From Planctomycetaceae bacterium (GTDB lineage Bacteria; Planctomycetota; Planctomycetia; Pirellulales; UBA1268), in contig CANKIK010000006.1 in the NCBI GenBank assembly GCA_947481985.1, positions 13,382-77,381 on the forward strand: a stretch of DNA of 64,000 bases, written 5' to 3'. Of this stretch, positions 46,170 through 63,780 are shown in pieces. The notes under the pieces were generated by a model. The model saw only the letters and a program-made list of their open reading frames with translations, was not told the DNA's origin and did no database searches. Numbering within the stretch: the stretch's first letter is position 1; each line of letters opens with the position of its first letter. A program made the position numbers and the translations under genes.

Positions 46170-46285
46170 CCGCGGGCTGTCCAAGCCGTGGCAAACAGCC
46201 CTGAGCGCACGGGTCAAGCGCGGGCCAGAGTCAGCCCGGCAGCAATCGACCGCAGAAAACCCGCGGCGGACGCACAAAAACAAAG

Positions 46286-46368
46286 CGGAGGGCATGGGAT
46301 TCGAACCCACAATCCATCTCTGGACATCTGATTTCGAGTCAGACCGCTGGCCAATTCGCTTACCCTCC
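46286..46368 (-). tRNA. tRNA-Ser (anticodon CGA), class II with a long variable arm; CCA not encoded
   Basis: Minus-strand read GGAGGGT...TCTGA-CTCGAAA-TCAGA...TCCA-GAGA-TGGA...GTGGG-TTCGAAT-CCCAT-GCCCTCC-G. Has a 7-bp acceptor stem, a canonical anticodon loop and a canonical T-loop. The D-stem pairing is weak by eye. Confidence 0.8.
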
Positions 46369-46464
46369 GAACAAGCCTCCTCCAATGTAGAACAACTTCG
46401 GCAAACGCTCAAGTTCGCCCGCACAACCGGCACCGGTCAATCGATGGCGACCCCCGAGGCCTTG

Positions 46465-48021
46465 TCAGGGGGCCCCCATGCCAGCAGCGACGTGAACTGA
46501 TTCTACCCCACCTCTCGAGACCACGCCCGAGGGCCAAGCCGGCAGACGATCGAGGACGGAGATCGCGTCGGCACGATCGGCCGCCGCATCGGCCTCGACG
46601 ACCAACGCCCCGCGGTCGGCGAGGGCCGCCGACGTTTCGATCCCGTCGAGAATCCGCTGGAGATTCTCCGCAGACACGACGACCACCGGCTCCGACAACG
46701 ACGGCAGCCCGACGTGCAGCGACACTGCCCTCCCCGTCTCCACGCCAAGCGTCCACTGCCCTCCGCCACCACCACTGGCGGAAAGCCCGATCACTCGACC
46801 TGCCGCAGCCGTCCAGGCGGCCTCACCAAGACGCTCAAAAAGCCTCTCGCGGGCCGATGTCGTCCGCATCATCCGCTCGGGCTGTGGCCAACGGAAGCGA
46901 TTGTCGATCGCAAACCGGCACAGCCGGCGGATGGTTTCATCGTCGAGTTCCGGCGCGGGGAGGTCGGGAACGGCGGCGGTCGTCTGCGCGCTATCAAACC
47001 GGGGGTCATCGCTCCAATAGGCCCGGTAGACATGCATCTGATCTTCAAAGAGCCGCGCCAGCACCATGGGATCGAAATGAGCGGCGGCCTTCCCCGGGCC
47101 GGCGGCGGCCCGCTCGGCAGCCAGTTCCTTGGCCATCTCCACCACCAGCGTCTCGAAAACGCGGCACAGCGTTGCCACCGAGGTCGGGCGGGTGGAGGTG
47201 ATGTGGTAGGTGCGGCCGTGGAGCGACTTATCACCGATGATCCGGGCCATCACCGCCGACACCCAGTCGACAGGCACGAGATTCTTGACTTCCGCGCCGC
47301 TCATGCCGAGGACCTCGAGCAGCGACCCCGATTCCAGCGACGCCTCCATGAACGCCTCCACAAACGGCTGCACAATCCGCAGCGGTTTGTAGAAGCCGTG
47401 AAAGGTGTTGGTGAACCCTGTCACCAAATCGCCAACGATGATACTCGGCCGGTGAACCGTGCAGACATCGAGGAACGGAGCGGAGACCGCTGCCTTCTCT
47501 GAGGCGATCTTGCTCCGCTCGTAGTCATTGCCAGGCGTCTGGCCAACGTCGAGCTCGCCCTCGAGAATCCGCCCGCGGCGCGTTCCGCAGACATACGCGC
47601 TCGACACGTGATGGAAGCGTCGGATTCCATGATTGCGGCACAGTTCGAGGACATGCGCCGTTCCGTTGACGTTGCTGTTCCAGGGTTCGCCGTCGCTCTC
47701 CCGCATCTGGAAGGAGAGGCTGGCTGCAGAATGCACGACCTCCGTGACGTGGCGCCCCACCCAGGCGGCGGCCGCCGCAGACAATCCCAGACCGGGGAGA
47801 GTGATATCCCCTTCCAGGACCACCGGGCAGGAAACGGTGACGCCGGCGACACCCCGCCAGTCGTCAAGAATCTCGTCGACACGCCTGGCCGCTCCGGCTG
47901 TCTTTGAACCACGCACAAGCACCGCGATGCGGCGGCCCGTCGCGGCCAAGTCGCGGAGGAGTGACCGGCCAAGCAACCCGGTCGCACCGGTGAGCAGGAG
48001 GTAGGAGTCCTCGACGGTCAT
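46465..48021 (-). CDS. stand-alone thioester/fatty-acyl reductase (NAD_binding_4 / TR-type extended SDR) fused to a C-terminal SCP2-like lipid-binding domain
   Basis: LLLTGATGLLGRSLLRDL, VVHSAASLSF, HHVSSAYVCG, NDYERSKIASE, HRPSIIVGD. The C-terminal ~130 aa (GQWTLGVETGRAVSLHVGL...VVVSAENLQRILDGIETSAALADRGALVVE) fit an SCP2-like pattern. Paralogous to 62605-63780. Confidence 0.8.
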   Translation of the reverse strand: MTVEDSYLLLTGATGLLGRSLLRDLAATGRRIAVLVRGSKTAGAARRVDEILDDWRGVAGVTVSCPVVLEGDITLPGLGLSAAAAAWVGRHVTEVVHSAASLSFQMRESDGEPWNSNVNGTAHVLELCRNHGIRRFHHVSSAYVCGTRRGRILEGELDVGQTPGNDYERSKIASEKAAVSAPFLDVCTVHRPSIIVGDLVTGFTNTFHGFYKPLRIVQPFVEAFMEASLESGSLLEVLGMSGAEVKNLVPVDWVSAVMARIIGDKSLHGRTYHITSTRPTSVATLCRVFETLVVEMAKELAAERAAAGPGKAAAHFDPMVLARLFEDQMHVYRAYWSDDPRFDSAQTTAAVPDLPAPELDDETIRRLCRFAIDNRFRWPQPERMMRTTSARERLFERLGEAAWTAAAGRVIGLSASGGGGGQWTLGVETGRAVSLHVGLPSLSEPVVVVSAENLQRILDGIETSAALADRGALVVEADAAADRADAISVLDRLPAWPSGVVSRGGVESVHVAAGMGAP

Positions 48022-48072
48022 GGGCAGCGATCCTGATCGGTAAAAGGGAGAAAGGGAAGCGAGATATCAATC

Positions 48073-48837
48073 TCAGATATGGATCGCGGCGCCGCCATCG
48101 ACGACGAGGGTCTGACCTTGGACGAGGTCGGAGAGCGCACTCGAAAGAAAGAGCACGGCGTCGGCGACATCGCTGGCCTCGAGTTGCCGCTGGCCGACCA
48201 TCGTCTTGCTCGTACGACCGGCGAACATCATGTCGGCACCGGGGAGACGGCGGGTGGAGTCGGTATCGACAAGCCCAGCCTCGACGACGTTGACGTTGAC
48301 GCCGCGATCGCCGAGTTCAAGGGCCCAATGCCGCGCAAGCGCCGTCAGTGCCGCCTTCGATCCCCCGATCAGTCCATACATCGGCAGGGCCATGTGCGTG
48401 CCATGACTGGAGAGGACCACCACCTTGCCGCGGTCGCTTCCCGATTCCAGCAGCGGCGCCGCCGCCTTGAGAAGGTGCACGAGCGACAGGACGTTGGTGT
48501 GCATGGCGGCGTCGAAGTGCCGCTGCGACGTGGCGGAGAGTGGCCGGAAGCCGCCGGTGGCGGCATTGTGAACGAGAATATCGAGCTGTCCAAACTGCTC
48601 CCGAACAAAACTGATCATGTCCTCCACATCTTCTTCCTCGCCGACGTCCGCCCGTACGCAGGCCACGCGCCGTCCCATGGCGGCGATCTCGGCTGCCACT
48701 CCATCGGCCTCGCGGCCGCTGGTCACGTAGTTGATCACGATATCGGCCCCGGCCTGGGCCATCCGCAGCGCGCAGGCTCGACCGATTCCCCGGCTGCTGC
48801 CGGTGATCAAGGCCACTTTTCCACTCAGATCGATCAT
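48073..48837 (-). CDS. FabL-like NAD(P)H-dependent enoyl-ACP reductase (SDR)
   Basis: GKVALITGSSRGIGRACALRMAQAGADIVINY, DILVHNAATG, YGLIGGSKAALTALARHWALEL, VNVVEAGLVDTD, GQTLVVDGG. Collinear by eye with Bacillus FabL rather than FabG. Confidence 0.75.
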   Translation of the reverse strand: MIDLSGKVALITGSSRGIGRACALRMAQAGADIVINYVTSGREADGVAAEIAAMGRRVACVRADVGEEEDVEDMISFVREQFGQLDILVHNAATGGFRPLSATSQRHFDAAMHTNVLSLVHLLKAAAPLLESGSDRGKVVVLSSHGTHMALPMYGLIGGSKAALTALARHWALELGDRGVNVNVVEAGLVDTDSTRRLPGADMMFAGRTSKTMVGQRQLEASDVADAVLFLSSALSDLVQGQTLVVDGGAAIHI

Positions 48838-48868
48838 CGCACGCTACTCCGGGGTTGATGCAGTGGTT

Positions 48869-49741
48869 TCAAACGCGGGTGGCCGCCGGTCGGCGGCCGT
48901 AGATCAGCCAGTGTCTGGCGAAAACTTCGGGGGCCTGCTGGTAGCGGTGGGTGGCAAAACCCCGTTCCACAAGCAATTGCTCCATCCGTTGGCACGATTC
49001 GACGCCATCGTGCACCTCCACGATCGCCTGGCGGATCAGCGGCCAGTGAACGTCGTCGATGCCCGCCAAGGCATCGAACTCCGCTCCTTCGACATCGAGT
49101 TTGAGTAGATCGATCTGCTCGACTCCCGCGGCGCGGATGCTGTCGGAGAGTCGCACCAACCGGCAAGCCACTCGCTTCGACCGCTGGAACCAGCGTCTGA
49201 TCACCTCAGCGCAGCCGAGCGACACCCAACGGGGGAAGAGATCGACCGCCGGTCCTAGCCGGCGCTTGATTTCGCCGAGGATAAAACGGTTGGATTCCTC
49301 GTGGGCCACGGGACTGTCATCGGGATACATCGACGAACTGGTGCTCGTCAGCGGATAAAAGGTGAACTCCGCCGTCCCCTCGCGGTTGGAGGCTCCGGCG
49401 TGATGGAGGCGGACATCGAGGCGCGAGTGGCGGGCAACGTTTGCCCGCAGCGCCGCGAACGTGGCAGGAATCGGCTCGAATGCGTGGACAGTTCCCTGAG
49501 AGATGCGATCGCCGACCCACAGCACTGCCAGGCCGACGTTCGCCCCCACATCGAACACCGTCGCTCCCTCGGGGAGATCGACGCCGAACATTGCGTAGAT
49601 CTGTTCGACGAAGATCTCATCGTAAGCAATGCGGGTGTTGTCACCACACAGGGTCAGCACCTGTCGGCCGTCAGGCAAGGTCATCGTTCGCAGCCCGCCG
49701 GTCAGCGCGGGCTGGGGAAGTCGTTCGCTGTGGCGGATCAT
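48869..49741 (-). CDS. FkbM-family SAM-dependent methyltransferase
   Basis: GATVFDVGANVGLAVLWVG, VHAFEPIPATFAALRANV, GASNREGTAEFTFY, IDLLKLDVEGAEFDAL. The ATG at 49741 overlaps the Rieske gene stop (ATGA). Confidence 0.8.
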   Translation of the reverse strand: MIRHSERLPQPALTGGLRTMTLPDGRQVLTLCGDNTRIAYDEIFVEQIYAMFGVDLPEGATVFDVGANVGLAVLWVGDRISQGTVHAFEPIPATFAALRANVARHSRLDVRLHHAGASNREGTAEFTFYPLTSTSSSMYPDDSPVAHEESNRFILGEIKRRLGPAVDLFPRWVSLGCAEVIRRWFQRSKRVACRLVRLSDSIRAAGVEQIDLLKLDVEGAEFDALAGIDDVHWPLIRQAIVEVHDGVESCQRMEQLLVERGFATHRYQQAPEVFARHWLIYGRRPAATRV

Positions 49742-50889: not shown

Positions 50890-51539
50890 CGCGTTCGCTC
50901 CTCTCCGCTGCCACTGGCGACTGCTGCCTGCCGAGGGTGCTCGGCGCAGGCAATGGCTACCAGGTACCGGCCGACGTTGAAAAACCGTCCGCTCCCGTGT
51001 GCGGTGCACCACTCATCGCGGAGCGTCCACTCGAAACTATCGGACGAGCCAGTCCGCACCGACACGGCAAGCGGCCGGAAGGTGGTGTCGATCCCGGCAG
51101 CCTTGTAGGCCGACTCCTTAGCCGACCACACCAAGGGACGCGCGGCATCGGTGGCATTGGCGGCCCCGCAATCGTCTGAGAGCCAGTGATCGAGTCCCGG
51201 ACCGGCGACGGCGGGATCAACGATATCGATCCCCACGTTGCCCTGCGAACAGACGGCCGCACCAACCATCCCCCGTTCGTGTGCCAGCGACACCGACACC
51301 TCAAGCAAGCCGGCATCGCCCATCGCCACCGGTCGGCCCGAAGGGAGCAGGGACGCGATCCGCACTCCGTGCCGCGGCAGGCCGGCATGGGCCGCGACCA
51401 CCGCTTCACCGAGCCGACGGGCAGCCGCCGACAGCGATTCCCCCGGTGCCGGGACAGAAAACGCGGCGTCGATGCGCCAGTCGCCGATCACCAATCCCCG
51501 TTCGACGTGACCGTTGCCGGGATGGATGACTGCGATCAT
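50880..51539 (-). CDS. 4'-phosphopantetheinyl transferase
   Basis: SLAHERGMVGAAV, GIDIVD and WSAKESAYKA motifs. The ATG at 51539 overlaps the PKS stop (ATGA). Confidence 0.85.
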   Translation of the reverse strand: MIAVIHPGNGHVERGLVIGDWRIDAAFSVPAPGESLSAAARRLGEAVVAAHAGLPRHGVRIASLLPSGRPVAMGDAGLLEVSVSLAHERGMVGAAVCSQGNVGIDIVDPAVAGPGLDHWLSDDCGAANATDAARPLVWSAKESAYKAAGIDTTFRPLAVSVRTGSSDSFEWTLRDEWCTAHGSGRFFNVGRYLVAIACAEHPRQAAVASGSGEERTRCS

Positions 51540-57500: not shown

Positions 57501-60472
57501 AAGGATGCATCGGCCACCAGGCTGCGGAACATATCGGTGTACTGGGACCCCTGCCCCGGAAAGAGCGCCGCGACGAGCCCTCGGGAAGCTCCGCCGAAAG
57601 GATTCGCTGCCGGGAGTTCCAAGGCCGCGGGCGTGGCCGACGCGCTCCCCACAGGCTGCCACAGCGGCAGAGGCCGGCCGTTGTCCATCACCAGGTGGCC
57701 CACCAGCGTGTCGTTGACACTCGTCACGCTGCCGGCCCGATAGCCGTTCTCATCGAAGGCCGCGACGGCGAGCGGTGCCGCTGCCGCCGCCGGGACACCG
57801 GCTTGCTGCGTCCGCACCGCCACCGTCCCGGGCATCACACCGCTGTCGAGAACCCGCGTGAGTTTGACAACCGCGGCTGCCCCAGCCGCAGCACCGAGGT
57901 GGCCGACAACTCCTTCGATCGCTCCCGCCACCGGAGTCCCACCATACTCGGCGGCGATGGCCGCTAACTCCGCTTGATTTCCCTCGAGCGTGCCGCAGCC
58001 GCAGACTTCGACAGCCCCAACGGCACAAGCCGAGATCCCCGACTGGAGCCGTGCCTCGTGGACCACCCGAGAGGCCACGGTGGCGATCGATTCGCCCGAG
58101 CCCACCGCAACGCCGCGAATCACGCCATGAATCCTCTGCCCCGCAGCCCGGGCATCGGAGAGTCGCTTGAGCACCATCACCACGGCACCCTCTCCGGGCA
58201 CGCGACCGGCGCTGGCACGGTCGAACGGCGAACTCGTCCCGTCGGCAATCGAGCCCTCGAGAGAGAAGCCCTCAAAGGCCATCAGGTCGAGGTAGCGTTG
58301 GCCGGCAGCACACAGCACCGTATCGCAATCCCCCTGGCGGAGCAGGTCCGCGGCGGCGGAGATCGCTGAGAGACCGGAACAATCGCCGGCATCGAGTGCC
58401 AGGGCGCCTCCCATCAGATCGAACGATTTCGTCAACCGGCTGGCGAGCGTCGAACTGGTGAAGCTCCCCGTCTCGTCGACGAGGGCCGGCATCCGCTCGA
58501 GGAGTTTCTTTCCGTACGCCTCCACGATGCGCTCGATATCCCCCGCAGCGACACCCCGTCGGCCGAGCGCTGTCCGCAGGTGACCGGACGTCTCAGGCAG
58601 CCGCAAGCCCATCTGCAGATCATTGGAAAACTCTCCGCCGAACATCGTTCCGACAACGACTCCAGTGCGGATCCGGTCAAGTGCTGCCACACCGCCAACC
58701 TCAGCAATCGCTGCATCGGCAGCCTCAAGCAGCATGAACTGGAGTGGATTAGCAGCGGCGATCTGCTTGGGGGGAACTTTGTGACGCCGCCAATCGTAGG
58801 CAAAGCCGCGAACGAAACCGCCGACACCTGCCACCGTGTGCCAGGTGCGCGGCCCGGAGGGATCGAGGGCCCGGGAAAGATCCCAGCGATCGGCTGGCAC
58901 CGCAGCCACCACCGATTCTCCACGCTCGAGCAGTTCCAGGAACGCATTCGTCGACAGGGCCCCGGGCATCACGCTGCCAATGCCGACGATGGCAATCGCT
59001 CTGTTGTCGGCATCATCTACAGCCCTGGCAGCCTGGGGTGCCACGGGCACGGAGGGGGCCAGGGGCGCCGCCGGCAGATGCTCTGAGAGGGCGAGGTGGA
59101 CGTTGAGGCCGCCGATTCCGAAGGCATTCACGGCCGCCCGGCGGGCCTCGCCATCGGCGCGCTTGGGCCAGGAGAGCGCTGTCTGGGGAACCGAGAACGG
59201 CCCCCTTTCCCAATCGAAATCCTCGTTGAATTCAGTGGCCGTTGTCCCCGGTGGAATGAGGCCGTGTTCCATGGCCAACACCACCTTCACGAGACTCGCC
59301 ATGCCGGCAGTTTCGAGGGTGTGACCGATGTTGGCCTTCACACTGCCGATGGGGATTTTCTTCCCGGCCGGTAGATTGGCAGCCATCAGCGCCGACAAGG
59401 CGCCAAGTTCCGTAGCGTCGCCGACCTGCGTGCTGGTGGCGTGGGCCTCGATGTAATCGAGACGGGCGATCTCCCGCTTGTCGGGATAGGCGCGTTCCAC
59501 GGCCAATGTCTGTCCCTCCTGACGGGGCGCCCAGAGGCTCTTCCCCTTGCCGTCGCTGGCCACTCCGATACCGCGGATCACGGCACGGATCCGATCGCCG
59601 TCGGCGATCGCGCGGGAGAGCGTCTTGATGACCAGCGCCACATAGCCCTCGGCGGTCACCAGACCATCGGCCCCGCGGCCGAACGGACACGATCCGCGGT
59701 TGCTCACCGATTGGGCGGCCGAGAAGAGAACCAGGCTATCCGACTTGCAGTACGAGGCACCGCCGACGATCGCTTGGTCAATACCGTCCTGCTGGAGGGC
59801 ACGGGCGGCGATGGCCATCGCCTGCAGCGACGACGCACAGGCGGCATCGACGACAAGGTAAGGACCGTTAAGCCGCAGCGCCTCGCGAACGATCTTGGCG
59901 GCCCCGAGCGCCCCCAGATCGAGCTTCTCTCCCGGTTTTCTCCCCGGGTGCCGGTGGCGGACGGCTGCTGTTACCTCATCGGCCACCACCGAGGCCTCGG
60001 CGCCGAGGAGTTGCCGTGCCACATCAACGTCGCACAGGAGCGAAGCGCTGCCGTCGATGCCGGTGGAGTAGACGTAGTCGCCAATCCGGGTGCTGCCGCC
60101 GGTGTGCCCCACGTAGACTCCCGTGCGGCGGCCGGAGGGCATCGCGAAAGGATCGAGGCCGGCGTCGCTGCAGGCCAGTGAAGCCACTTCCAGAAAGAGA
60201 TGATGCGCCACGTCATAGCGCTGGATCATGTCGGGCGTGATCGGGCAGACCGCCGGATCAGCTGGTCGTTCACTCACCAAGGCGCCGAGGTCTGAGTAAC
60301 TCTTGCCGACCTTCCCCTTCTCGGGGTCAAAATACAGCCCACGCGGCAATCGGGACTCGGGCAATCGGCCCCAGGCAGTGCGGCCATGCACGACCAAATC
60401 CCAGAAGGCCTCAAGGCCATCCGCCCCAGGCAGCCTGCAAGCCATCCCCACTATCGCCAATGAATCGTGCAA
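51536..60472 (-). CDS. 2978-aa iterative type I polyketide / secondary-lipid synthase: KS, degenerate KS (CLF-like), AT, ACP x3, unknown ~290-aa insert, KR, PS-type DH; no TE, ER or FabA-type DH
   Basis: Domain motifs are listed in the sub-features below. The ORF opens with TTG at 60472 (TTG-CAC-GAT-TCA = M/L-H-D-S), only 5 codons before the KS IVGMACRLPG box. The next in-frame Met would truncate the KS. Confidence 0.95.
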   Translation of the reverse strand: MHDSLAIVGMACRLPGADGLEAFWDLVVHGRTAWGRLPESRLPRGLYFDPEKGKVGKSYSDLGALVSERPADPAVCPITPDMIQRYDVAHHLFLEVASLACSDAGLDPFAMPSGRRTGVYVGHTGGSTRIGDYVYSTGIDGSASLLCDVDVARQLLGAEASVVADEVTAAVRHRHPGRKPGEKLDLGALGAAKIVREALRLNGPYLVVDAACASSLQAMAIAARALQQDGIDQAIVGGASYCKSDSLVLFSAAQSVSNRGSCPFGRGADGLVTAEGYVALVIKTLSRAIADGDRIRAVIRGIGVASDGKGKSLWAPRQEGQTLAVERAYPDKREIARLDYIEAHATSTQVGDATELGALSALMAANLPAGKKIPIGSVKANIGHTLETAGMASLVKVVLAMEHGLIPPGTTATEFNEDFDWERGPFSVPQTALSWPKRADGEARRAAVNAFGIGGLNVHLALSEHLPAAPLAPSVPVAPQAARAVDDADNRAIAIVGIGSVMPGALSTNAFLELLERGESVVAAVPADRWDLSRALDPSGPRTWHTVAGVGGFVRGFAYDWRRHKVPPKQIAAANPLQFMLLEAADAAIAEVGGVAALDRIRTGVVVGTMFGGEFSNDLQMGLRLPETSGHLRTALGRRGVAAGDIERIVEAYGKKLLERMPALVDETGSFTSSTLASRLTKSFDLMGGALALDAGDCSGLSAISAAADLLRQGDCDTVLCAAGQRYLDLMAFEGFSLEGSIADGTSSPFDRASAGRVPGEGAVVMVLKRLSDARAAGQRIHGVIRGVAVGSGESIATVASRVVHEARLQSGISACAVGAVEVCGCGTLEGNQAELAAIAAEYGGTPVAGAIEGVVGHLGAAAGAAAVVKLTRVLDSGVMPGTVAVRTQQAGVPAAAAAPLAVAAFDENGYRAGSVTSVNDTLVGHLVMDNGRPLPLWQPVGSASATPAALELPAANPFGGASRGLVAALFPGQGSQYTDMFRSLVADASLVGQCAQGLDAAARSGGWQTLAEIAWQPGNRLGTAVWDTQWGMYLGDLLAWRVLEGMGFAPDVIASHSFGEFPSLVAAGAWTFEEGALATKARAAAVEQLGPKQGAMLSVIADRQEVEHCIEPFAGQVWLCAENAPEQSVIGGHARVVDAVEVVLEGRRVRSKRLAVPSPFHTPLLAAAADRLAETIRGLPIVAPRKTVYSSSTAAPMLSADDVRESLIRQMTQTVRWVDVVERLWESGVRTFVEVGPSGVLTGLTRRILEGREGATFISFDQRGRNAVGHLEKVREQLQSAGALRSLASAPQAPGIEPKRLLLSSGEGLGGVPSGAMWSFDATARRRARNRAGNAPVHTAAAAPPPRAPLASAQPVVTHGARPHAGAVHRLAAVPAVMRSAQALPPRQLQGYLEDVVAGLLGDYGVTIPLHSSADKGHAFLDAAGQLFECGHADLTALGTAATIDEVCEILAASGGKARWLDRRPAVALPSAQTATNSAVVATDLENCLVEFVVDQTGYPREIVELDADLEGDLGIDSIRKAQLFGEIGQKYGLSADSQLSLDDFRTLRHLRDYMLPRIGGGRQPGLRTPSLVLVSNGHSSNGHSSNGYSSNGHSSNGYSSNGYSSNGHSSNRHSSAVVESLLTDQASAVETLAADVSGELETFLVEFVVDQTGYPREIVELDADLEGDLGIDSIRKAQLFGEIGQKYGLSADSQLSLDDFRTLRHLRDYMLPRIGGGSAAAPNASKSLATQAPVSAASTNGAARFAPAVAAALETVADVSGELETFLVEFVVDQTGYPREIVELDADLEGDLGIDSIRKAQLFGEIGQKYGLSADSQLSLDDFRTLRHLRDYMLPRIGGGSAGVLAPGNGVGRTSVGDLPPSVGSADFERGRADGARHATAIRLWAREMVASAAERHSATPWSGLPDVVEKYLSGVAEGARVDRAVLAAGLADPAAALGGFDSAVSMDAGSVLGLALGFGRHADPSCQEIESSGRRMTLVGVKGLPGGLAGWNDAGLVVIAACQSMTSGFPLTSAVEMALNCSSVADAATVLAGVAPLAGRLFIADTRQGNLQEIGGDGRVKSVGLCAHQLAPLTALLRVAGDGAGGVALGRLLDPVAGVGVRDGLSATATWMVCGSTVAGRQAFAGGPRGPWLSAATLDSATCLWADVPRRQTAPAAPQEVNGVTGRYGLGLQSLGSAVLDRDLKGERVLIIAATNTSADLAVDLAAALRARGAQAIVARCGSQAEAVSAVDAAEAQGPVLHVVIATPWHPARTWVESRSRTLVAGYFACQRWLACRTRAGDSQRATLTAVTALGGDFGLGGHIGCVTGGAFSGLFKNLAREYPLVQVRVVDFPPSALAADVARRTLDEIASRGGPVEVGWVNGVRQTVVATLGGPLSQRPLAGLARGSVWLVTGGARGVTAACARELGRRHGLSLVLVGSTRPQSVDATWLTLDEAGLRNLKGKIMLDAKAAGGDPRRAWRDVEKSIEIASGLEKFRAAGVNARYEACDLADGTAVRTLVERLAREIGPIRGIVHGAGYEAACRFEKKTLDGLEATLGPKCIGLEHLLATVDAVALESVVAFGSTSGRLGGMGQADYSLANDMLAKIVGRLRQDRPGVRATVFHWHAWDEVGMASRPESRFVLEQFGMKFMPLSEGVARFLAEIEAGLPDAEVLVTEPVFVLDAVSAPVFSAGSAIPAAGWPQGNRGSLVGTVARAENSTNVTMSLDPLLDVFLREHRQNGHPLLPAVMGAEMLAQAAIASGACDRVEEMREFVVERPVVFPTDQSREMRVEVTGVATDPGAAVSAQGWSAVRSGHRDADGERVHFSGRVSRGPAEPITTPLDDMLFPFNPMIYRDDGPMWHGPAFRTLTGLFLDRRGGWGRLVAPEMAAVAQPRGAAGWTVPAALLDGAIVGCAVYSYILCGKRVEVPLRFERLRFVAQAAAGEKCTVQMVFRSQDDRESVYDFVIYGADGRALVALDGLHLAVMPSERSRPL
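51548..52375 (-). other. PKS domain: polyketide-synthase-type double-hotdog dehydratase
   Basis: HxxxGxxxxP present as HRQNGHPLLP (His2721), followed by AVMGAEMLAQAA. Second-half LLDGAIVGCAVY (Asp2892). Confidence 0.8.
52598..53920 (-). other. PKS domain: ketoreductase (structural pseudo-Rossmann subdomain plus catalytic subdomain)
   Basis: RVLIIAATNTSADLA...VLHVVIAT (structural half); VWLVTGGARGVTAACARELG; GIVHGAG; FGSTSGRLGGMGQADYSLAN (Tyr2581). Confidence 0.85.
54023..54880 (-). other. PKS insert of unknown function between ACP3 and KR (aa ~1865-2150); tentatively C45/Ntn-hydrolase (acyl-CoA:6-APA acyltransferase)-like
   Basis: ADFERGRADGARHATAIRLW at the start, LAGWNDAGLVVIAA, and GFPLTSAVEMALNCSSVADAATVLAGVAPLAGRLFIADTRQGN resemble C45-family blocks as remembered. 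No Gly-Cys self-cleavage site was identified. Assignment by eye only. Confidence 0.35.
54944..56020 (-). repeat. three tandem ACP domains encoded by near-identical DNA (copies at about 55784-56005, 55313-55567 and 54944-55198)
   Basis: Each copy encodes LVEFVVDQTGYPREIVELDADLEGDLGIDSIRKAQLFGEIGQKYGLSADSQLSLDDFRTLRHLRDYMLPRIGGG (phosphopantetheine Ser at aa 1519, 1675, 1798). ACP2 and ACP3 are identical at the protein level over 85 aa, with a 369-nt period and a few synonymous differences. Confidence 0.9.
55622..55744 (-). repeat. ~8 x 15-bp in-frame tandem repeat encoding an (S-S-N-G-H/Y)n linker between ACP1 and ACP2
   Basis: Plus strand gccgttggagctata / gccgttggaactgtg / gccattggaactatg and similar units. 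Protein: SNGHSSNGHSSNGYSSNGHSSNGYSSNGYSSNGHSSNRHSS (aa 1577-1617). Confidence 0.9.
56693..57580 (-). other. PKS domain: acyltransferase (malonyl-type by eye)
   Basis: FPGQGSQY. Nucleophile elbow reads ASHSFGEF (SHSxG instead of GHSxG). VPSPFHTPLL (xAFH-like). Confidence 0.85.
57818..59005 (-). other. PKS domain: second KS-like domain with a degenerate active site (chain-length-factor-like)
   Basis: IAIVGIGSVMPGA. DAGDCSGL aligns to DAACASSL, placing Asp at the nucleophile position with Cys shifted by one. VEVCGCGTLEGNQAE replaces the EAHGTGT box (His to Cys). The second His is retained in VVGHLGAAAGA. Confidence 0.7.
59084..60466 (-). other. PKS domain: ketosynthase (KS1), catalytically complete
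   Basis: IVGMACRLPG; active-site Cys in VVDAACASSL (aa 212); EAHATSTQVGDATE (His344); NIGHTLETAG (His384); FGIGGLNVH. Confidence 0.9.
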
Positions 60473-61034
60473 AGCTCAGTCCTCGTCCTGGAGTGGAGCG
60501 CCATCAAGGCCGGGAATACCGTGGTGTGCGGTGTTCCCGCCTCTGGCGGTTGAAGCGGATGAACAGGTCAGAAGGGTGTTGATCGGGAATCCGTACGCGA
60601 AGCGAGATTGTCGAAGGCCAAAACAACCCGTCCGTGGGATCAACACAATGCCCAGCCCCCTCTGATGGGGCCCCGAGGCACTGCTCCGCATGCGAAGGAT
60701 CGGGCCCTGGGGGGCCCGGAAACCTCCCCGCGGAAGCGCATCCGTTCACCGTCTCATTCATCCCGCCGTGGACCTCTGGCAGCCACCCAAACCGCATCGC
60801 GCGGGGCGGAGTGTGCGTGGTATGCCGAATCCAGGACGGGGCAAGTCAGTATGGACAGGGGGTTTAGACTGTCAAGAAATGGCCTCAATCGGCAGTTGAA
60901 CCGCCTTCGGAGAGCCTCGCGAGACATCCTGGCGGCGGTGCCACCGGCCGCTGCGTATACTCCCTCCGCCCCCGCTTATTAGACGGGTGCCGACCCTTCG
61001 CCATTGGTTTCAGGCGTTGCCTCCCCCGCTCCCT
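60473..61034. promoter_or_regulatory. divergent intergenic control region between the PKS operon (minus) and the condensation-enzyme/TR operon (plus)
   Basis: 562 bp with no convincing ORF between two divergent biosynthetic operons. It contains a TATACT hexamer at about 60955 and a GGGCCC...GGGCCC palindromic element at about 60700-60718. No promoter could be defined rigorously. Confidence 0.4.
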
Positions 61035-62459
61035 ATGACCGCCGATCGACCGCTGACCCCTTTCGAGCAGTTGTTACTGCGGGACCAGCGCCCGGGGTAT
61101 CCGATCTGTTTTTTCCTCCACTGCGATCTGGAGGGCAACCTTGACGGAGAGCGTCTGAGGACTGCCCTGCAGACGGCCTGCCTCCGCCACCCCCTCACCC
61201 AAAGCAGGGTGCGCGGCTCTTGGTGGCGGCCCCGCTGGATGCCGGGGAGATGGATGCCGGAACTGGTCGTTGCTCCCCTGGGAACTCACCTTCCCAGCCA
61301 TGGCGGCCCGGGGGATCCATGGCGGCCGATCGATGTCCAGCTTGGCAGCGGCCTGCGGATGGTGGCCTGCGAGCGTTTTCCCGGTGTCTGGCGGGTGGTG
61401 CTCCAAGTTCACCACGCGGTCTGCGACGGACTCTCAGGCATGGAACTCTTCGGCGACGTCTGGTCGCACTACCACGGCAACCCTCCCGCCGCCTTCCGTC
61501 AGCCGACCCGCCGGCTGGCAGCCCCCTCAGCTCCGGCTCCTGCAGCGTCCCCCCAGCCCCCCTCCACTGACCTCGTCCGCGAGACCAGGAAGTTCGCTGG
61601 CTTTATTCCCACTCCACTGGCCAGAGGACCGGTGCGGGCTGTCGCAGAACCAGCCTGTCCTGGCATCGATGCGCCCTATCTCACCTTCCGTTTCAGCCGC
61701 GAGGAAACCCGACTGCTGTGGACCCATGCGGCCGCGGCAGGCGTGGCTGTCAACGACATCCTCGTGGCGGCGATGATGCGCACCTGCCTGGCTTGGAATG
61801 CGGCAGCGGGACACCCAGCCAGTGGAGTCCGAATCACGATGCCGGTGAGCCTCAAGGCAGCCGGTGCCCGCGGACCGGTCTGCAACGACATGTCGTATGC
61901 CTTCCTCGACCGCTCCGCCGCCGACTGCGCCCGCCCGTCAGAGCTGATTCACTCTCTCGCGGCCGCCAGCCACTGGATCCAGGAGCATCGCGCCACCGAA
62001 GCCCTCCTCGACACACTGGCCGTGCTGGATCGCTATCCTCCGCTGATCTGGTTGATCACCCGCTTGCCTGTCTGCCTATCGACAGCAGTGGTCAGCAACA
62101 TCGGCAATTTCGGCACGCGGATGAAAGCGTCTGTCCCACACGACGGCGCCTGCGGACTCCCCGGAGGATTGCGGATCACGGCAGCAGGCGGCGTTCCGCC
62201 GCTCCGTCCAGGGACCAGACTCGCAGTCGGACTGGCCACCTATGACAGCCAGTTGCAGCTGTCGCTGCTGTGCGATCGGAGATCGCTCGGCGATGCAGCG
62301 CAGTCGCTCTTGGCGGAGATGATCCGACCGAGCGTCTTCGGCTGCGCCGCGGCGCTCTCACATTGGGGAGGGGCCGACGCCCCGGCTGGCGAGCCCCGGC
62401 CGCCCGAACCATCGCGGGATAACCGGGGGCCATTGCCCACGGTGCGGGGGCGAATCTAG
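61035..62459 (+). CDS. free-standing condensation-domain acyltransferase (HHxxxDG; PapA5 / wax-ester-synthase-like logic)
   Basis: VLQVHHAVCDGLSGMELFGDVW. About 475 aa and no carrier or adenylation domain. ATG at 61035 (the ORF opens with GTG at 60987). Confidence 0.75.
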   Translation: MTADRPLTPFEQLLLRDQRPGYPICFFLHCDLEGNLDGERLRTALQTACLRHPLTQSRVRGSWWRPRWMPGRWMPELVVAPLGTHLPSHGGPGDPWRPIDVQLGSGLRMVACERFPGVWRVVLQVHHAVCDGLSGMELFGDVWSHYHGNPPAAFRQPTRRLAAPSAPAPAASPQPPSTDLVRETRKFAGFIPTPLARGPVRAVAEPACPGIDAPYLTFRFSREETRLLWTHAAAAGVAVNDILVAAMMRTCLAWNAAAGHPASGVRITMPVSLKAAGARGPVCNDMSYAFLDRSAADCARPSELIHSLAAASHWIQEHRATEALLDTLAVLDRYPPLIWLITRLPVCLSTAVVSNIGNFGTRMKASVPHDGACGLPGGLRITAAGGVPPLRPGTRLAVGLATYDSQLQLSLLCDRRSLGDAAQSLLAEMIRPSVFGCAAALSHWGGADAPAGEPRPPEPSRDNRGPLPTVRGRI

Positions 62460-62604
62460 ATTCTTTTCTTCCAAACGTCTCCACAATGTCACTTGGATCG
62501 CGTGTCTGGGTATTGTCGCGGCTGCGGCGAGATCCGCTTCGCATCCTGAATGATGCCGATTGGCTGATTGTTGCAGTGCACCCTCTTTGCTGGACGACAT
62601 CGCC

Positions 62605-63780
62605 ATGATCGAAATCCCATCGGCAGACCGCCGCCATCTCCTCATCACCGGAGCCACCGGACTGCTGGGGTCCTATCTCGTCAGGGACCTGCTCCTCGAT
62701 GGCCAGCCAGTGGCGCTGGTGGTCCGCGGATCCCGCCGCGAGTCACCGGCCCAACGGGTCGATGCCCAGCTCATCCACTGGGAGAACGAACTCGGCAAAC
62801 GGCTCCCGAGACCGCGTGTGTTTGACGGCGACATGACCCGTCCCTTGTGCGGGCTGGGCGCTGACGACCTGTCCTGGATCGGCGAACACTGCTGCTCTGT
62901 CCTCCACAACGCGGCCAGTTTGAACTTCCGCGGCGCCGACCGTGCCGCCGAGCCCTGGCTGTCGAATGTCAGCGGTGTTCGCAACGTCCTCGATCTCGTC
63001 CAAGCCACCGACATCGAACACTTCCACCATGTCTCCACCGCCTACGTCTGCGGGCTGCGATCGGGCCGGATCGCCGAGAATGACCTCGAATGCGGCCAGA
63101 AGTACGGCAACGACTACGAGCGGAGCAAGGTCGAGGCGGAGCAACTTGTCCGCGCAGCATCGGGCCCCCGAACAGTCACCGTCTACAGGCCGTCGATCAT
63201 CGTTGGCGATTCCCACTCTGGATACACCTCCACCTATCACGGGCTGTTCGCCGCCCTCCGTCTCGGCCACACCCTTCTCACCCGGGTGGCGATCGGATCG
63301 ACCAGTGGCCCAGCCCTGCTCGGCCTGCTGGGGATCGACCTGACGGCGTGCAAGAATTTCGTCCCGGTTGACTGGGTCTCGGCGGTCATCGCGCATGCCG
63401 TCCAGACCCCATCCGCCCGTGGCCAGACGCTGCACCTGACCCATCCTGAGCCGCTGTCGATGGCGACCTTGGGAGCACTGATCCAAGAGGCGGTGGAGCG
63501 ATTCTCGCAAGCGGCGGCGGCGGATGACCCCGATCTGTGCGACGAACAGTGGTTTGCCGAGAACCTCCGCACGCAGTTGGACGTGTACCGCACCTACTTC
63601 CGCAACGACCCGTTCTTTGATCGCTCAAACCTCGAGGCGGTGGCGGGCCACATTCCCTGTCCCGTCCTCGACCATCCCACGCTCCTTCGCATGGCCCGTT
63701 TCGCCATCGAACAGGATTTCGGCCGCCTCGCCAAACCATCCACCCTGGCCGCCAAAACGATGTCGGTGCAAGTCTCTTAG
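62605..63780 (+). CDS. second stand-alone thioester/fatty-acyl reductase (TR-type extended SDR), paralog of 46465-48021
   Basis: LLITGATGLLGSYLVRDL, VLHNAASLNF, HHVSTAYVCGLRSGRIAENDLECGQKYGNDYERSKVEAE, YRPSIIVGD. Lacks the SCP2-like tail. Confidence 0.8.
   Translation: MIEIPSADRRHLLITGATGLLGSYLVRDLLLDGQPVALVVRGSRRESPAQRVDAQLIHWENELGKRLPRPRVFDGDMTRPLCGLGADDLSWIGEHCCSVLHNAASLNFRGADRAAEPWLSNVSGVRNVLDLVQATDIEHFHHVSTAYVCGLRSGRIAENDLECGQKYGNDYERSKVEAEQLVRAASGPRTVTVYRPSIIVGDSHSGYTSTYHGLFAALRLGHTLLTRVAIGSTSGPALLGLLGIDLTACKNFVPVDWVSAVIAHAVQTPSARGQTLHLTHPEPLSMATLGALIQEAVERFSQAAAADDPDLCDEQWFAENLRTQLDVYRTYFRNDPFFDRSNLEAVAGHIPCPVLDHPTLLRMARFAIEQDFGRLAKPSTLAAKTMSVQVS

What the first reader, a model, noticed from the sequence alone, without database searches (positions are those of the whole stretch)
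46286..63780. Orphan secondary-lipid PKS cluster with reductive and condensation off-loading, starting directly after tRNA-Ser
Seen in the sequence:
- Six co-directional, tightly packed genes lie on the minus strand: TR-SCP2, FabL-like ER, FkbM MT, Rieske oxygenase, PPTase and the 2978-aa PKS.
- ATGA start/stop overlaps join PKS to PPTase and Rieske to MT. The PPTase-Rieske gap is 6 nt.
- A divergent plus-strand pair encodes an HHxxxDG condensation enzyme and a second TR.
- No thioesterase, PfaD-type ER or FabA-type DH was seen.

Inference:
- The PKS acts as an iterative long-chain acyl synthase, with enoyl reduction supplied in trans.
- The chain is released reductively to an aldehyde or alcohol.
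- It is tailored by hydroxylation and O-methylation.
- It is then esterified by the C-domain enzyme.

This logic combines elements of heterocyst-glycolipid synthesis (PKS plus TR) and mycobacterial PDIM synthesis (PapA5 ester formation). The exact gene set is not one I recognise as characterised. The product is unknown, and the cluster may extend beyond 64000.
Basis: partly seen in the sequence, partly recalled or inferred. Interest (0 to 1): 0.85.

Follow-up and report, generated by a model that had tools for sequence, protein, structure and literature searches.

The report
Conserved planctomycete lipid-making PKS gene cluster
This is a real, tightly packed gene cluster, inherited vertically in freshwater Pirellulales-type planctomycetes, that most likely builds a long fatty chain on a giant synthase, releases it by reduction and links it as an ester; its product is unknown and no studied system has the same parts.

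Summary
PPTase and Rieske genes overlap by 10 nt rather than being 6 nt apart. The SCP2 tail of TR1 is detectable only through its homologues.

The cluster is a co-inherited unit. In metagenome loci anchored on the small SDR gene alone, 39 of 39 had the PKS upstream and 49 of 49 had TR1 downstream. The divergent C-like gene was present wherever that side was visible.

- **Core:** C-like acyltransferase | PKS - (PPTase) - FabL-type enoyl reductase - TR1.
- **Accessory:** Rieske plus FkbM methyltransferase occurs in 6 of 39 loci. TR2 occurs in the window and one relative.
- **Boundaries:** the cluster ends at TR2. It is not a tRNA-linked island, since GC content is uniform and the neighbourhood is syntenic.

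New details are a KS-KS0-AT-ACP3-Ntn-KR-DH architecture. The embedded domain has an isopenicillin-N-acyltransferase-like Ntn-hydrolase fold, and the window copy lacks the nucleophile Cys.

I found no characterised equivalent. Closest analogues are PfaA, heterocyst-glycolipid, Mas/PapA5 and zeamine systems.

Verdict: new variant of a known kind, moderate interest.

The parts
46285..46368 (-). tRNA-Ser(CGA). It is a conserved neighbour of the cluster and a boundary marker, not a functional part.
   Evidence: ARAGORN and Rfam RF00005. The same tRNA lies near the cluster in 9 of 15 related loci, at varying positions.
46465..48021 (-). TR1: stand-alone thioester or fatty-acyl reductase (NAD_binding_4, GxxGxxG, YxxxK) with a C-terminal SCP2-like lipid-binding extension of about 130 aa.
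   Evidence: Pfam PF07993 E 5e-38. PDB relatives are a PKS TR (8v1x, E 8e-16) and MxaA (E 3e-12). The tail hits SCP2_2, Alkyl_sulf_C or SCP2 in homologues. TR1 is downstream of the SDR in 49 of 49 loci.
48073..48837 (-). FabL-like SDR, the candidate trans-acting enoyl-ACP reductase of the PKS.
   Evidence: The top NCBIfam hit is NF005975 (FabL) at 252 bits, below the 328 cut-off. The Yx6K motif YGLIGGSK is present. It is 82-93% identical across loci and always follows the PKS. JGI names its orthologues enoyl-ACP reductase III.
48869..49741 (-). FkbM-family methyltransferase (accessory tailoring).
   Evidence: TIGR01444 E 4e-30 and PF05050. It shares an ATGA overlap with the Rieske stop. It is present in only 6 of 39 loci.
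49738..50889 (-). Rieske non-haem-iron oxygenase alpha subunit (accessory tailoring).
   Evidence: PF00355 and PF00848. The CxH...CxxH and H-x4-H motifs are read in the sequence. It lies in line in 20 of 39 loci.
50880..51539 (-). Sfp-type phosphopantetheinyl transferase, translationally coupled to the PKS.
   Evidence: The PF01648 hit is weak (23 bits against a cut-off of 25). The WSAKESAYK motif is present. Homologues hit ACPS. It shares an ATGA overlap with the PKS stop.
51536..60472 (-). Iterative PfaA-like type I PKS/FAS of 2978 aa: KS - KS0 - AT - ACP x3 - Ntn-fold domain - KR - PS-DH.
   Evidence: Pfam. TIGR02813 PfaA scores 731 bits, below the 1010 cut-off. About 92 homologue clusters share the architecture, and those with a source name are called Planctomycetota.
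59063..60463 (-). KS1 (residues 4-470), with a canonical Cys-His-His triad.
   Evidence: The triad is conserved in 91-92 of 92 homologues.
57818..59005 (-). KS2 (residues about 490-885). It is KS0-like: Cys and the second His are kept, and the first His is replaced (Cys in the window).
   Evidence: Pfam E 8e-38. Cys is present in 92 of 92 and the second His in 91 of 92. The first His position is A, S, T, C or I, or gapped, in all 92.
56720..57574 (-). Acyltransferase domain (residues 967-1251), FabD-like.
   Evidence: PF00698 and TIGR00128 FabD E 7e-49. Active-site motif SHSFGE. Use of malonyl extender units is inferred from the FabD likeness.
54940..56035 (-). Three tandem ACPs (DLGIDS at residues 1514, 1670 and 1793).
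   Evidence: PF00550 in three stretches. Three 259-nt DNA repeats are 89-100% identical. ACP number is 1-3 across homologues.
55625..55744 (-). 15-bp tandem repeat, 8 copies, encoding the SNG(H/Y)S linker between ACP1 and ACP2.
   Evidence: TRF. PKS length varies from 2964 to 2978 aa on near-identical contigs. Whether this repeat causes the variation was not checked. The repeat is specific to this lineage.
53948..54865 (-). Embedded Ntn-hydrolase-fold domain (residues 1870-2175), like isopenicillin-N acyltransferase. The predicted nucleophile position is Phe1943 in the window.
   Evidence: AlphaFold model pLDDT 87.9. Foldseek top hits are IAT 2x1c (E 2e-7), NAAA and acid ceramidase. The Pfam PF03417 hit is weak. 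The position is Cys in 31 of 91 homologues, Phe in 29 and Leu in 15.
52523..53890 (-). KR with its structural subdomain (residues about 2195-2650).
   Evidence: PF08659 E 2e-26. The TGGARGV and YSLAN motifs are read.
51548..52375 (-). PKS-type dehydratase (residues about 2700-2975).
   Evidence: PF21089 and PF14765. HxxxGxxxxP motif = HRQNGHPLLP.
60473..61034 (.). 562-bp divergent intergenic region between the PKS and the C-like gene, the presumed promoter region.
   Evidence: One sigma-70-like consensus match lies at 60875-60848 on the minus strand. The count for the region is not above chance.
61035..62459 (+). Stand-alone condensation-superfamily (PapA5-like) acyltransferase with motif HHAVCDG.
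   Evidence: The profile against PDB gives NRPS C/E domains at E 4e-24, 8s6l at 7e-15, PapA5 1q9j at 4e-8 and WS/DGAT at 1e-7. Model pLDDT 89 has a C-domain fold. H127, D131 and G132 are invariant. The gene is divergent from the PKS in all relatives where that side is visible.
62605..63780 (+). TR2: a second thioester-reductase-family protein without the SCP2-like tail (accessory).
   Evidence: PF07993 E 2e-43. It is 40% identical to TR1. An orthologue occurs only in L014, and it is absent from L023, L030 and L040-L043.

Best explanation
This is a dedicated, vertically inherited secondary-lipid operon of uncultured freshwater planctomycetes that resemble Pirellulales.

**Proposed mechanism**
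1. The Sfp-type PPTase activates three tandem ACPs of an iterative PfaA-like type I synthase (KS-KS0-AT-ACP3-Ntn-KR-DH).
2. KS1 and the FabD-like AT extend the chain with malonyl units.
3. The cis KR and DH, plus the FabL-type SDR acting in trans as enoyl reductase, reduce each unit. The result is a long, largely saturated ACP-bound acyl chain.
4. KS2 keeps its Cys but lacks the decarboxylation His. It probably holds or gates the chain rather than elongating it.
5. Two off-loading enzymes are always encoded with the synthase.
   - TR1 reduces the thioester to an aldehyde or alcohol. Its SCP2-like tail binds the lipid.
   - The PapA5-like C-superfamily enzyme transfers an ACP-bound acyl chain to a hydroxyl (or amine) acceptor. 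The acceptor is most simply the alcohol made by TR1, which would give a wax-ester-type neutral lipid.
6. In the window's lineage a Rieske oxygenase and an FkbM methyltransferase add an optional hydroxyl or methoxy decoration. TR2 is an extra reductase.

**Shown:** gene content, motifs, folds and linkage.
**Inferred:** every chemical step and the product.
For: **Gene set and coupling**
-.

**Linkage**
- Anchoring on the SDR alone in metagenomes, 39 of 39 loci have the PKS upstream and 49 of 49 have TR1 downstream.
- The C-like gene is divergent from the PKS in L014, L017, L023, L030 and L040-L043. It is partly visible in L069, L071, L098 and L105.
- The related Bythopirellula goksoeyrii cluster keeps TR, PKS, PPTase, SDR and the C-like gene.

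**Enzyme assignments**
- ER: Yx6K signature (PMC9260719). FabL is the top NCBIfam hit. The SDR still flanks distant PKS relatives.
- TR: the closest solved relatives are PKS and MxaA reductases.
- SCP2-like tail.
- C-like: invariant catalytic motif, profile and fold.
- Active-site motifs of KS1, AT, ACP, KR and DH are intact.

**Vertical inheritance**
- GC content is uniform. The neighbours are syntenic.

**Precedents**
- PapA5 transesterifies PKS-bound acyl chains onto alkanols (PMC5064953).
- Zeamine uses a stand-alone TR and a stand-alone C enzyme with a PUFA-like synthase (PMC5811116).
Against: - No product, expression or biochemical data exist.
- All curated equivalog cut-offs are missed: PfaA 731 of 1010, FabL 252 of 328, TR 111-120 of 213, WS/DGAT 46 of 310. 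The assignments are family-level only.
- The acceptor of the C-like enzyme is unknown. Its closest solved stand-alone fold match (8s6l, AzeD) is described as a dehydratase.
- The SDR is far more conserved than its neighbours. This could mean an additional housekeeping role.
- The role of the Ntn-fold domain is unknown.
- No Rieske reductase or ferredoxin partner lies in the cluster.
- The tailoring genes are missing from most relatives.
Confidence: 0.5

Rival explanations
1. The synthase makes very-long-chain (omega-1)-hydroxy or polyol chains, like heterocyst-glycolipid aglycones and the C26-C35 (omega-1)-hydroxy and dihydroxy fatty acids of cultured planctomycetes. The C-like enzyme attaches them to a bound envelope acceptor rather than forming a free wax ester. 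The Rieske oxygenase supplies the second hydroxyl.
For: - Such lipids are reported in Pirellulales and Gemmatales isolates (PMC6995999 Table 1; PMC3327967 Table 2). In the strains studied in PMC3327967 they occur only residually bound.
- I found no biosynthetic genes assigned to them.
- The PKS, PPTase, SDR and TR gene set resembles the hgl island (own knowledge).
- The core is vertically inherited and clade-wide, as expected for an envelope lipid.
Against: - No lipid data exist for the window's uncultured lineage.
- I could not test whether the core's presence tracks these lipids across cultured species.
- The reported lipids are acids, whereas TR1 predicts alcohols or aldehydes.
Confidence: 0.2
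2. The C-like enzyme forms an amide, giving an N-acyl amino acid or amine lipid, and TR1 serves a separate aldehyde or alcohol branch. The Ntn-fold domain, which resembles acyl-amide-handling enzymes, takes part in acyl-N chemistry.
For: - The strongest profile matches are NRPS C/E domains, ahead of PapA5 and WS/DGAT.
- The Ntn-fold domain resembles IAT, NAAA and acid ceramidase, all of which act on acyl-amide or acyl-transfer substrates.
- Zmn19 forms an amide in a PUFA-like system (PMC5811116).
Against: - The cluster has no adenylation domain, aminotransferase or amino-acid-supplying gene.
- The window's Ntn-fold domain lacks the nucleophile Cys.
- C-domain similarity is generic at 12-19% identity.
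Confidence: 0.15
3. The cluster is a variant PUFA or olefin (Pfa-type) synthase. It would make polyunsaturated chains for membranes or the C31:9 hydrocarbon.
For: - PfaA is the best NCBIfam model for the PKS.
- The tandem ACPs resemble those of PUFA synthases.
- Planctomycetes make C31:9.
Against: - No PfaB, PfaC (FabA-type DH), PfaD or Ole genes lie in the cluster or in any related locus.
- The score is below the PfaA cut-off.
- An SDR-type ER, a TR and a C-like gene are invariably linked instead.
Confidence: 0.04
4. The SDR is the cell's housekeeping FabL enoyl-ACP reductase and merely sits next to the PKS. The PKS itself would work without an ER and make an unsaturated or polyene chain.
For: - The SDR is 82-93% identical across loci where the PKS is only 45-65% identical. 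Such constraint is typical of essential genes.
Against: - Linkage to the PKS is 39 of 39 when anchored on the SDR.
- Linkage persists next to PKS relatives of only 30-40% identity, including one locus labelled Deltaproteobacteria.
- The SDR lies inside the operon, between the PKS and TR1.
Confidence: 0.08

Closest known systems
PfaA subunit of bacterial PUFA synthases (TIGR02813)
   Same: - KS, AT, tandem near-identical ACPs, then KR and a PKS-type DH at the C-terminus.
- An Sfp-type PPTase is encoded alongside.
- It is the best-scoring NCBIfam model (731 bits).
   Different: - The score is below the curated cut-off of 1010.
- There is an extra KS0 domain after KS1 and an Ntn-fold domain between the ACPs and KR.
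- There are no PfaB, PfaC or PfaD partners.
- The ER is a FabL-type SDR.
- Off-loading genes (TR, C-like) are always attached.
Heterocyst glycolipid (hgl) island of Nostocales: HglE-type PKS, HglB/HetM (ACP-TR), HetN (SDR), HetI (PPTase). Recalled from my own knowledge, not tested here.
   Same: - A PfaA-like iterative PKS combined with a reductase of the NAD_binding_4 family, an SDR and a PPTase.
- Long-chain alcohol products.
   Different: - No glycosyltransferase and no HglC, HglD, HglF or HglG equivalents were seen.
- A C-superfamily acyltransferase is present instead.
- The TR is stand-alone and carries an SCP2-like tail.
Mycobacterial Mas / PapA5 (PDIM) off-loading
   Same: - An iterative type I synthase whose ACP-bound acyl chain is transferred to an alcohol by a stand-alone HHxxxDG enzyme (PMC5064953).
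- The C-like family profile hits PapA5 1q9j at E 4e-8, and the fold matches.
- The Bythopirellula relative also carries FAAL-like and MMPL genes.
   Different: - Identity is only about 16%, and PF16911 scores below its cut-off.
- The window has no FadD or MmpL genes.
- The AT is FabD-like, not that of a methyl-branching synthase.
- The alcohol acceptor would be made by the cluster's own TR.
Zeamine pathway (Zmn10-13 PUFA-like synthase, Zmn14 TR, Zmn19 stand-alone C)
   Same: - A secondary-lipid synthase with a stand-alone thioester reductase and a stand-alone condensation enzyme (PMC5811116).
   Different: - There are no aminotransferase or NRPS-PKS partners.
- Zmn19 makes an amide with a peptide-polyketide donor.
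- The synthase here is a single polypeptide.
Acyl-CoA:isopenicillin N acyltransferase (IAT, PDB 2x1c) and lipid amidases NAAA and acid ceramidase
   Same: - The embedded PKS domain has the same Ntn-hydrolase fold with a helical pro-region (Foldseek E 2e-7, probability 1.0, TM 0.52).
- One third of homologues have Gly-Gly-Cys at the predicted cleavage and nucleophile site.
   Different: - The domain is embedded inside a 2978-aa synthase.
- Identity is 14%.
- The window copy has Phe at the nucleophile position.
- No sequence-level PDB or Pfam match reaches significance.
Uncharacterised cluster of Bythopirellula goksoeyrii Pr1d (CP042913, about 2.87-2.91 Mb; L039)
   Same: - It encodes TR (with the C-terminal tail), PKS, PPTase, a FabL-like SDR (60% identical) and a C-like enzyme (27% identical).
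- It is the only cultured relative found.
   Different: - The PKS is 3731 aa and 44% identical.
- The gene order differs (the TR is upstream).
- Extra genes are present: FAAL, MMPL, MBL, a luciferase/MT fusion and two unknown genes.
- It has no Rieske or FkbM gene.

Membership tests
PUFA synthase (Pfa) | A PfaA-type subunit reaching the curated TIGR02813 score | tested here: not met
   731 bits against a cut-off of 1010.
PUFA synthase (Pfa) | Tandem ACP domains | tested here: met
   Three ACPs. Their DNA repeats are 89-100% identical.
PUFA synthase (Pfa) | PfaC with FabA-type DH domains, PfaB AT and PfaD FMN-type ER in the cluster | tested here: not met
   None occurs in 46.3-63.8 kb, in the 10 kb beyond the window, or in the related loci.
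Heterocyst-glycolipid synthase cluster | A glycosyltransferase (HglT-type) and HglC/D/F/G partners next to the PKS and TR | tested here: not met
   No GT or extra KS/AT genes were found in the cluster or its flanks. A GT87-family ORF at 1948-3201 lies 43 kb away.
PapA5 / polyketide-associated acyltransferases | HHxxxDG catalytic motif | tested here: met
   HHAVCDG. H127, D131 and G132 are invariant in 33 homologues.
PapA5 / polyketide-associated acyltransferases | Pfam PapA_C (PF16911) or NCBIfam PapA5 model at the curated cut-off | tested here: not met
   PF16911 scores 19 bits against 30. NF006787 scores 24 bits against 396. Some homologues do carry PF16911 or PF00668.
PapA5 / polyketide-associated acyltransferases | Two-lobed condensation-domain fold | tested here: met
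   Model pLDDT 89. Foldseek hits are 8s6l (E 2e-19), NRPS C domains and 1q9j (E 3e-14).
PapA5 / polyketide-associated acyltransferases | Transfers a PKS-bound acyl chain to an alcohol | not testable with these tools
   This needs an enzyme assay.
WS/DGAT wax-ester synthases | TIGR02946 or PF03007 at the curated cut-off | tested here: not met
   TIGR02946 scores 45.9 bits against 310. PF03007 scores 18 bits against 23.6. The profile is closer to C domains than to WSD structures.
FabL enoyl-ACP reductase | SDR with the Ser...Tyr-x6-Lys signature and no internal Met | tested here: met
   LSSHG...YGLIGGSK. The signature is as described in PMC9260719.
FabL enoyl-ACP reductase | NF005975 equivalog cut-off | tested here: not met
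   252.5 bits against 328. It is still the best model by 73 bits.
Thioester reductase (TR) domain family | NAD_binding_4 domain with the GxxGxxG and YxxxK motifs | tested here: met
   PF07993 scores 131 and 149 bits against a cut-off of 20. Motifs TGATGLLG and YERSK occur in both TR1 and TR2.
Thioester reductase (TR) domain family | TIGR01746 curated cut-off | tested here: not met
   111 and 120 bits against 213.
SCP2 sterol/lipid carrier domain (TR1 tail) | A Pfam SCP2-clan match | tested here: inconclusive
   The window copy has no hit. Four of 8 homologous tails hit SCP2_2 (best E 7e-5), 3 hit Alkyl_sulf_C and 1 hits SCP2. The profile's PDB hit to an alkylsulfatase C-terminal domain has E 0.44.
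Ntn-hydrolase / peptidase C45 (IAT) family | Ntn alpha-beta-beta-alpha fold | tested here: met
   Foldseek against 2x1c gives E 2e-7, probability 1.0 and TM 0.52.
Ntn-hydrolase / peptidase C45 (IAT) family | N-terminal nucleophile (Cys) exposed by self-cleavage | tested here: not met
   The window has Phe1943 at the predicted position. Cys occurs in 31 of 91 homologues. The position was inferred from the start of the first beta strand, not from a residue-level structural alignment.
Ntn-hydrolase / peptidase C45 (IAT) family | Pfam PF03417 at the curated cut-off | tested here: not met
   14 bits against 23.2.
tRNA-linked genomic island | Atypical composition, mobility genes, and absence from the syntenic site in relatives | tested here: not met
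   GC is 0.64-0.67, as in the rest of the window. No integrase is present. The same neighbours (HIT, PTR2, RNase D, CitMHS, AddA) flank the cluster in relatives.

The most novel reading that the evidence does not exclude
The conserved core (PKS, FabL-type ER, TR with SCP2-like tail, C-like enzyme) is the so far unassigned synthase of the planctomycetal very-long-chain (omega-1)-hydroxy and dihydroxy lipids, or of a related heterocyst-glycolipid-like polyol. In addition, the embedded IAT-like Ntn-fold domain is a new kind of PKS domain. It has a Gly-Gly-Cys site in one third of homologues and may self-cleave the synthase or off-load the chain through a Cys thioester.
Probability: 0.15. Interest if true: 0.8.

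Novelty: new variant of a known kind. Interest (0 to 1): 0.6.

Why it matters
- **Distribution.** The core is present in every related locus examined, and in the window's closer relatives it sits in the same chromosomal neighbourhood. Its product is therefore probably a standing component of the cell (envelope or storage lipid) rather than a sporadic antibiotic.
- **Open question.** Planctomycetes have chemotaxonomic lipids for which I found no biosynthetic genes assigned. This cluster gives a concrete candidate. It can be tested genetically in a cultured relative, Bythopirellula goksoeyrii.
- **Enzymology.** It combines parts I did not find described together:
  - a PfaA-like synthase with a KS0 domain and an embedded Ntn-hydrolase-fold domain;
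  - a FabL-type SDR as the trans enoyl reductase, in place of PfaD;
  - a thioester reductase fused to an SCP2-like lipid-binding tail.
- **Engineering.** If the product is a PKS-derived alcohol or ester, the system would be a compact five-gene route to tailored long-chain oleochemicals.

Tried and rejected
- **tRNA-linked island:** rejected. GC content is uniform, the neighbours are syntenic, and the same tRNA-Ser accompanies the cluster at different positions.
- **Extension beyond 64000:** rejected. The next genes are a 106-aa ORF, a HIT protein, a 1394-aa protein with no Pfam domain, and further on a PTR2-type MFS transporter. They are the same in relatives that lack TR2.
- **'C' gene as a WS/DGAT wax synthase:** considered because TIGR02946 gave E 4e-12. 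The family profile and fold lie closer to C domains and PapA5.
- **KS2 as a chain-length factor:** rejected. The active-site Cys is invariant, and only the first His is lost.
- **Sequence searches of the Ntn-fold domain:** a PDB profile search found nothing significant. The fold came only from the structure prediction.
- **TR1 tail profile against PDB:** only a weak hit, E 0.44.
- **Rfam on 44-64 kb:** only the tRNA.
- **Promoter and terminator scan:** not above chance.
- **Shulse & Allen secondary-lipid types:** no equivalent. Planctomycete types I and J differ.
- **Literature searches for a characterised equivalent:** none found.
- **Homologue search with the Bythopirellula PKS:** timed out. 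The replacement search with its SDR named no cultured genus other than Bythopirellula, so the link to lipid phenotypes could not be tested.
- **Azotobacter ArsA/ArsD type I FAS:** recalled as a possible analogue. No sequence was available to compare, and no type III PKS lies nearby.

Full report
**1. What is there**

On the minus strand, in transcription order:
- PKS, 51536-60472, 2978 aa, TTG start.
- PPTase, 50880-51539.
- Rieske oxygenase, 49738-50889.
- FkbM methyltransferase, 48869-49741.
- SDR, 48073-48837.
- TR1, 46465-48021.
- tRNA-Ser(CGA), 46285-46368.

The junctions are tight: a 4-nt ATGA overlap, a 10-nt overlap, a 4-nt ATGA overlap, then gaps of 31 and 51 nt. The ATG at 50889 follows a GGAGAGGAG site. 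Homologues align from residue 1 with the same 10-nt overlap.

Across a 562-bp divergent spacer lie an HHxxxDG protein (61035-62459) and TR2 (62605-63780). Both starts agree with the genes called on identical metagenome contigs.

**2. The synthase**

Pfam and NCBIfam give KS, a second KS, AT, three ACPs, KR and a PKS-type DH. PfaA is the best model, but it scores below its cut-off (731 of 1010 bits).

- KS1 has Cys-His-His in all 92 close homologues.
- KS2 keeps the Cys (92 of 92) and the second His (91 of 92). The first His is always replaced. This is the pattern of a non-elongating KS0, not of a chain-length factor.
- The three ACPs are 259-nt DNA repeats that are 89-100% identical. Homologues carry one to three ACPs.
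- A 15-bp repeat in eight copies (55625-55744) encodes an SNG(H/Y)S linker. PKS length varies from 2964 to 2978 aa among near-identical contigs.
- Residues 1870-2175, between the ACPs and KR, had only a weak PF03417 hit.
  - A model built from 14 homologues (pLDDT 87.9) matches isopenicillin-N acyltransferase (2x1c, E 2e-7), then NAAA and acid ceramidase. This is an Ntn-hydrolase fold.
  - The first residue of the first beta strand follows a conserved 'ALGG' motif. It is Cys in 31 of 91 homologues, Phe in 29 (including the window, F1943) and Leu in 15.
  - A profile of the domain finds only 34 representatives among 1.84 billion proteins. It appears to be specific to this lineage.

**3. The partners**

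- *SDR.* FabL is its best NCBIfam model. It has the FabL signature Ser...Tyr-x6-Lys (PMC9260719). JGI names its orthologues enoyl-ACP reductase III.
- *TR1 and TR2.* Both are NAD_binding_4 proteins with GxxGxxG and YxxxK motifs. TR1's nearest solved relatives are a PKS TR and MxaA.
- *TR1 tail.* The extra 130 residues give no Pfam hit in the window copy. They hit SCP2_2, Alkyl_sulf_C or SCP2 in homologues.
- *HHxxxDG protein.* It belongs to a narrow clade of 96 clusters, mostly unnamed or annotated 'hypothetical'.
  - A profile of the clade matches NRPS C/E domains (E 4e-24), 8s6l (7e-15), PapA5 1q9j (4e-8) and WS/DGAT structures (1e-7).
  - The model (pLDDT 89) has the condensation fold.
  - The second His and the Asp-Gly of the motif are invariant.

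**4. Is it a unit?**

Loci came from three sources: GTDB genomes anchored on the PKS C-terminus, exact-protein look-ups of PKS homologues, and metagenomes anchored only on the SDR. All were compared by tblastn.

- With the SDR as anchor (at least 80% identity), 39 of 39 loci with enough upstream DNA had the PKS.
- With the same anchor, 49 of 49 loci with enough downstream DNA had TR1.
- The C-like gene lies divergent from the PKS wherever that side is visible.

Between the PKS and the SDR the content varies:

| Genes between PKS and SDR | Loci (of 39) |
|---|---|
| PPTase only | 19 |
| PPTase + Rieske | 11 |
| PPTase + Rieske + MT (the window's form) | 6 |
| Rieske only | 3 |

TR2 has an orthologue only in L014. 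A second, divergent Rieske gene follows TR1 in 14 of 32 loci but is absent from the window.

Distant PKS relatives (30-40% identity) keep the SDR next to the PKS. One of these loci is labelled Deltaproteobacteria.

The cultured Bythopirellula goksoeyrii has a related cluster. It encodes TR, a 3731-aa PKS, PPTase, SDR and a C-like enzyme, plus FAAL, MMPL and other genes.

**5. Context**

- GC content is uniform across the window.
- Beyond 64000 lie a 106-aa ORF, a HIT protein, a 1394-aa protein and, further on, a PTR2-type MFS transporter.
- The same genes flank the C-like gene in relatives that lack TR2.
- On the other side, relatives have either tRNA-Ser and AddA, as in the window, or RNase D and CitMHS. 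In the window these last two lie at 30673-33536.
- tRNA-Ser(CGA) accompanies the cluster at different positions.

The cluster is therefore chromosomal and vertically inherited. It is not an island, and it ends at TR2. The rest of the window is housekeeping.

Record titles place the relatives in Planctomycetota, labelled Pirellulales or 'Planctomycetaceae'. Several sample names point to lakes (Mendota, Baikal).

**6. Mechanism**

The most economical reading has four steps:
1. An iterative synthase extends the chain, with malonyl units as the inferred extender, and a dedicated FabL-type trans-ER helps build a long reduced chain on tandem ACPs.
2. TR1 releases the chain reductively.
3. The PapA5-like enzyme transfers an ACP-bound chain to a hydroxyl acceptor, plausibly the TR1 product.
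4. Rieske and FkbM decorate the product in some lineages.

Precedents exist for each off-loading step:
- PapA5 esterifies Mas-bound chains onto alkanols (PMC5064953).
- Zmn14 (TR) and Zmn19 (stand-alone C) serve a PUFA-like synthase in the zeamine pathway (PMC5811116).

Nothing about the product is demonstrated. Rivals that remain open are an amide product, an envelope-bound hydroxy lipid, and a dual housekeeping role for the SDR.

**7. Novelty**

I found no characterised system with this gene set or this synthase architecture. The sources checked were Shulse & Allen's secondary-lipid types, planctomycete genome-mining papers, a 2026 survey of PUFA-like hybrid clusters and targeted searches. 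Absence from the held library is not proof.

The logic is known (PUFA-like synthase, TR, C-type off-loading). The combination and two of the domains (KS0 and the Ntn fold) are new variants.

One lead is worth following. Cultured Pirellulales and Gemmatales contain C26-C35 (omega-1)-hydroxy and dihydroxy fatty acids. I found no biosynthetic genes assigned to them in the papers searched, and this core is a candidate.

Noticed in passing
window 55625-55744 (PKS linker between ACP1 and ACP2): A 15-bp tandem repeat in 8 copies encodes SNG(H/Y)S pentapeptides. The PKS is 2964, 2969, 2973 or 2978 aa on otherwise near-identical metagenome contigs, which may reflect repeat-number variation. The repeat is absent from the four more distant homologues checked.
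   Followed up: partly
window 53948-54865 (PKS residues 1870-2175): An Ntn-hydrolase-fold (IAT-like) domain is embedded in the PKS. The predicted nucleophile position is Cys in 31 of 91 homologues and Phe, Leu or Trp in most of the rest (Phe in the window). The domain profile finds only 34 representatives among 1.84 billion proteins.
   Followed up: yes
window 57818-59005 (PKS residues about 490-885): The second KS domain keeps its Cys and second His in all homologues but never has the first His. This is KS0-like rather than a chain-length factor.
   Followed up: yes
window 48073-48837 and loci L007-L117: The FabL-like SDR is 82-93% identical across loci whose PKS is only 45-65% identical and whose TR1 is 55-79% identical. 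This is unusually strong constraint for a cluster-specific enzyme.
   Followed up: partly
L007, L009-L011, L014, L016, L022, L042, L044, L045 and others, just after TR1: A second, divergently oriented Rieske oxygenase (about 31% identical to the in-line one) follows TR1 in 14 of 32 related loci. It is missing from the window, where the tRNA follows TR1 directly.
   Followed up: partly
L001-L006 11419-12124 (just beyond window position 64000); L040-L043: A roughly 106-aa ORF and a HIT-family gene overlap each other and run co-directionally downstream of the C-like gene in all close relatives. TR2 is inserted between them and the C-like gene in the window and, by position, probably in L014. Whether the pair belongs functionally to the cluster is unknown.
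   Followed up: no
L040, L043, L064, L065, L069, L070: In the variants with a Rieske gene directly after the PKS, the PPTase gene is absent. The synthase there must be activated by a PPTase encoded elsewhere.
   Followed up: no
L009, L011-L013, L018, L030 (record titles): Several ENA MAG records that carry this planctomycete-type locus are titled 'Candidatus Kuenenia stuttgartiensis' or 'Chitinophaga sp.'. These are probably automatic taxonomic mislabels.
   Followed up: no
L039 (Bythopirellula goksoeyrii CP042913, about 2.87-2.91 Mb): The cultured relative's cluster adds an MMPL transporter, an AMP-binding (FAAL-like) enzyme, an MBL-fold protein, a luciferase/methyltransferase fusion, an FAD oxidoreductase, an enoyl-CoA hydratase and two proteins of 540-560 aa with no Pfam domain. 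The FAAL-like and MMPL genes recall mycobacterial lipid loci.
   Followed up: partly
window 39508-46169 (+): An AddB/AddA-like helicase-nuclease pair (PD-(D/E)XK; UvrD helicase plus PD-(D/E)XK) lies immediately beyond the tRNA. AddA is also a neighbour of the cluster in several relatives.
   Followed up: partly
window 1-38000: The rest of the window is housekeeping:
- TrpE/TrpG-like anthranilate synthase (5495-7836)
- Cys/Met PLP enzyme (10861-12123)
- DUF6666 protein (12442-14547)
- Rho (18324-19901)
- FGGY kinase and FAD glycerol-3-phosphate-type oxidoreductase (22391-25853)
- TPR protein (27112-28452)
- 4-HFC-P synthase-like (28928-29878)
- CitMHS_2 transporter and RNase D (30673-33536)
- 3-keto-disaccharide hydrolase (33561-34289)
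- DUF2293 protein (34341-35111)
- A GT87-family ORF (1948-3201)
   Followed up: partly
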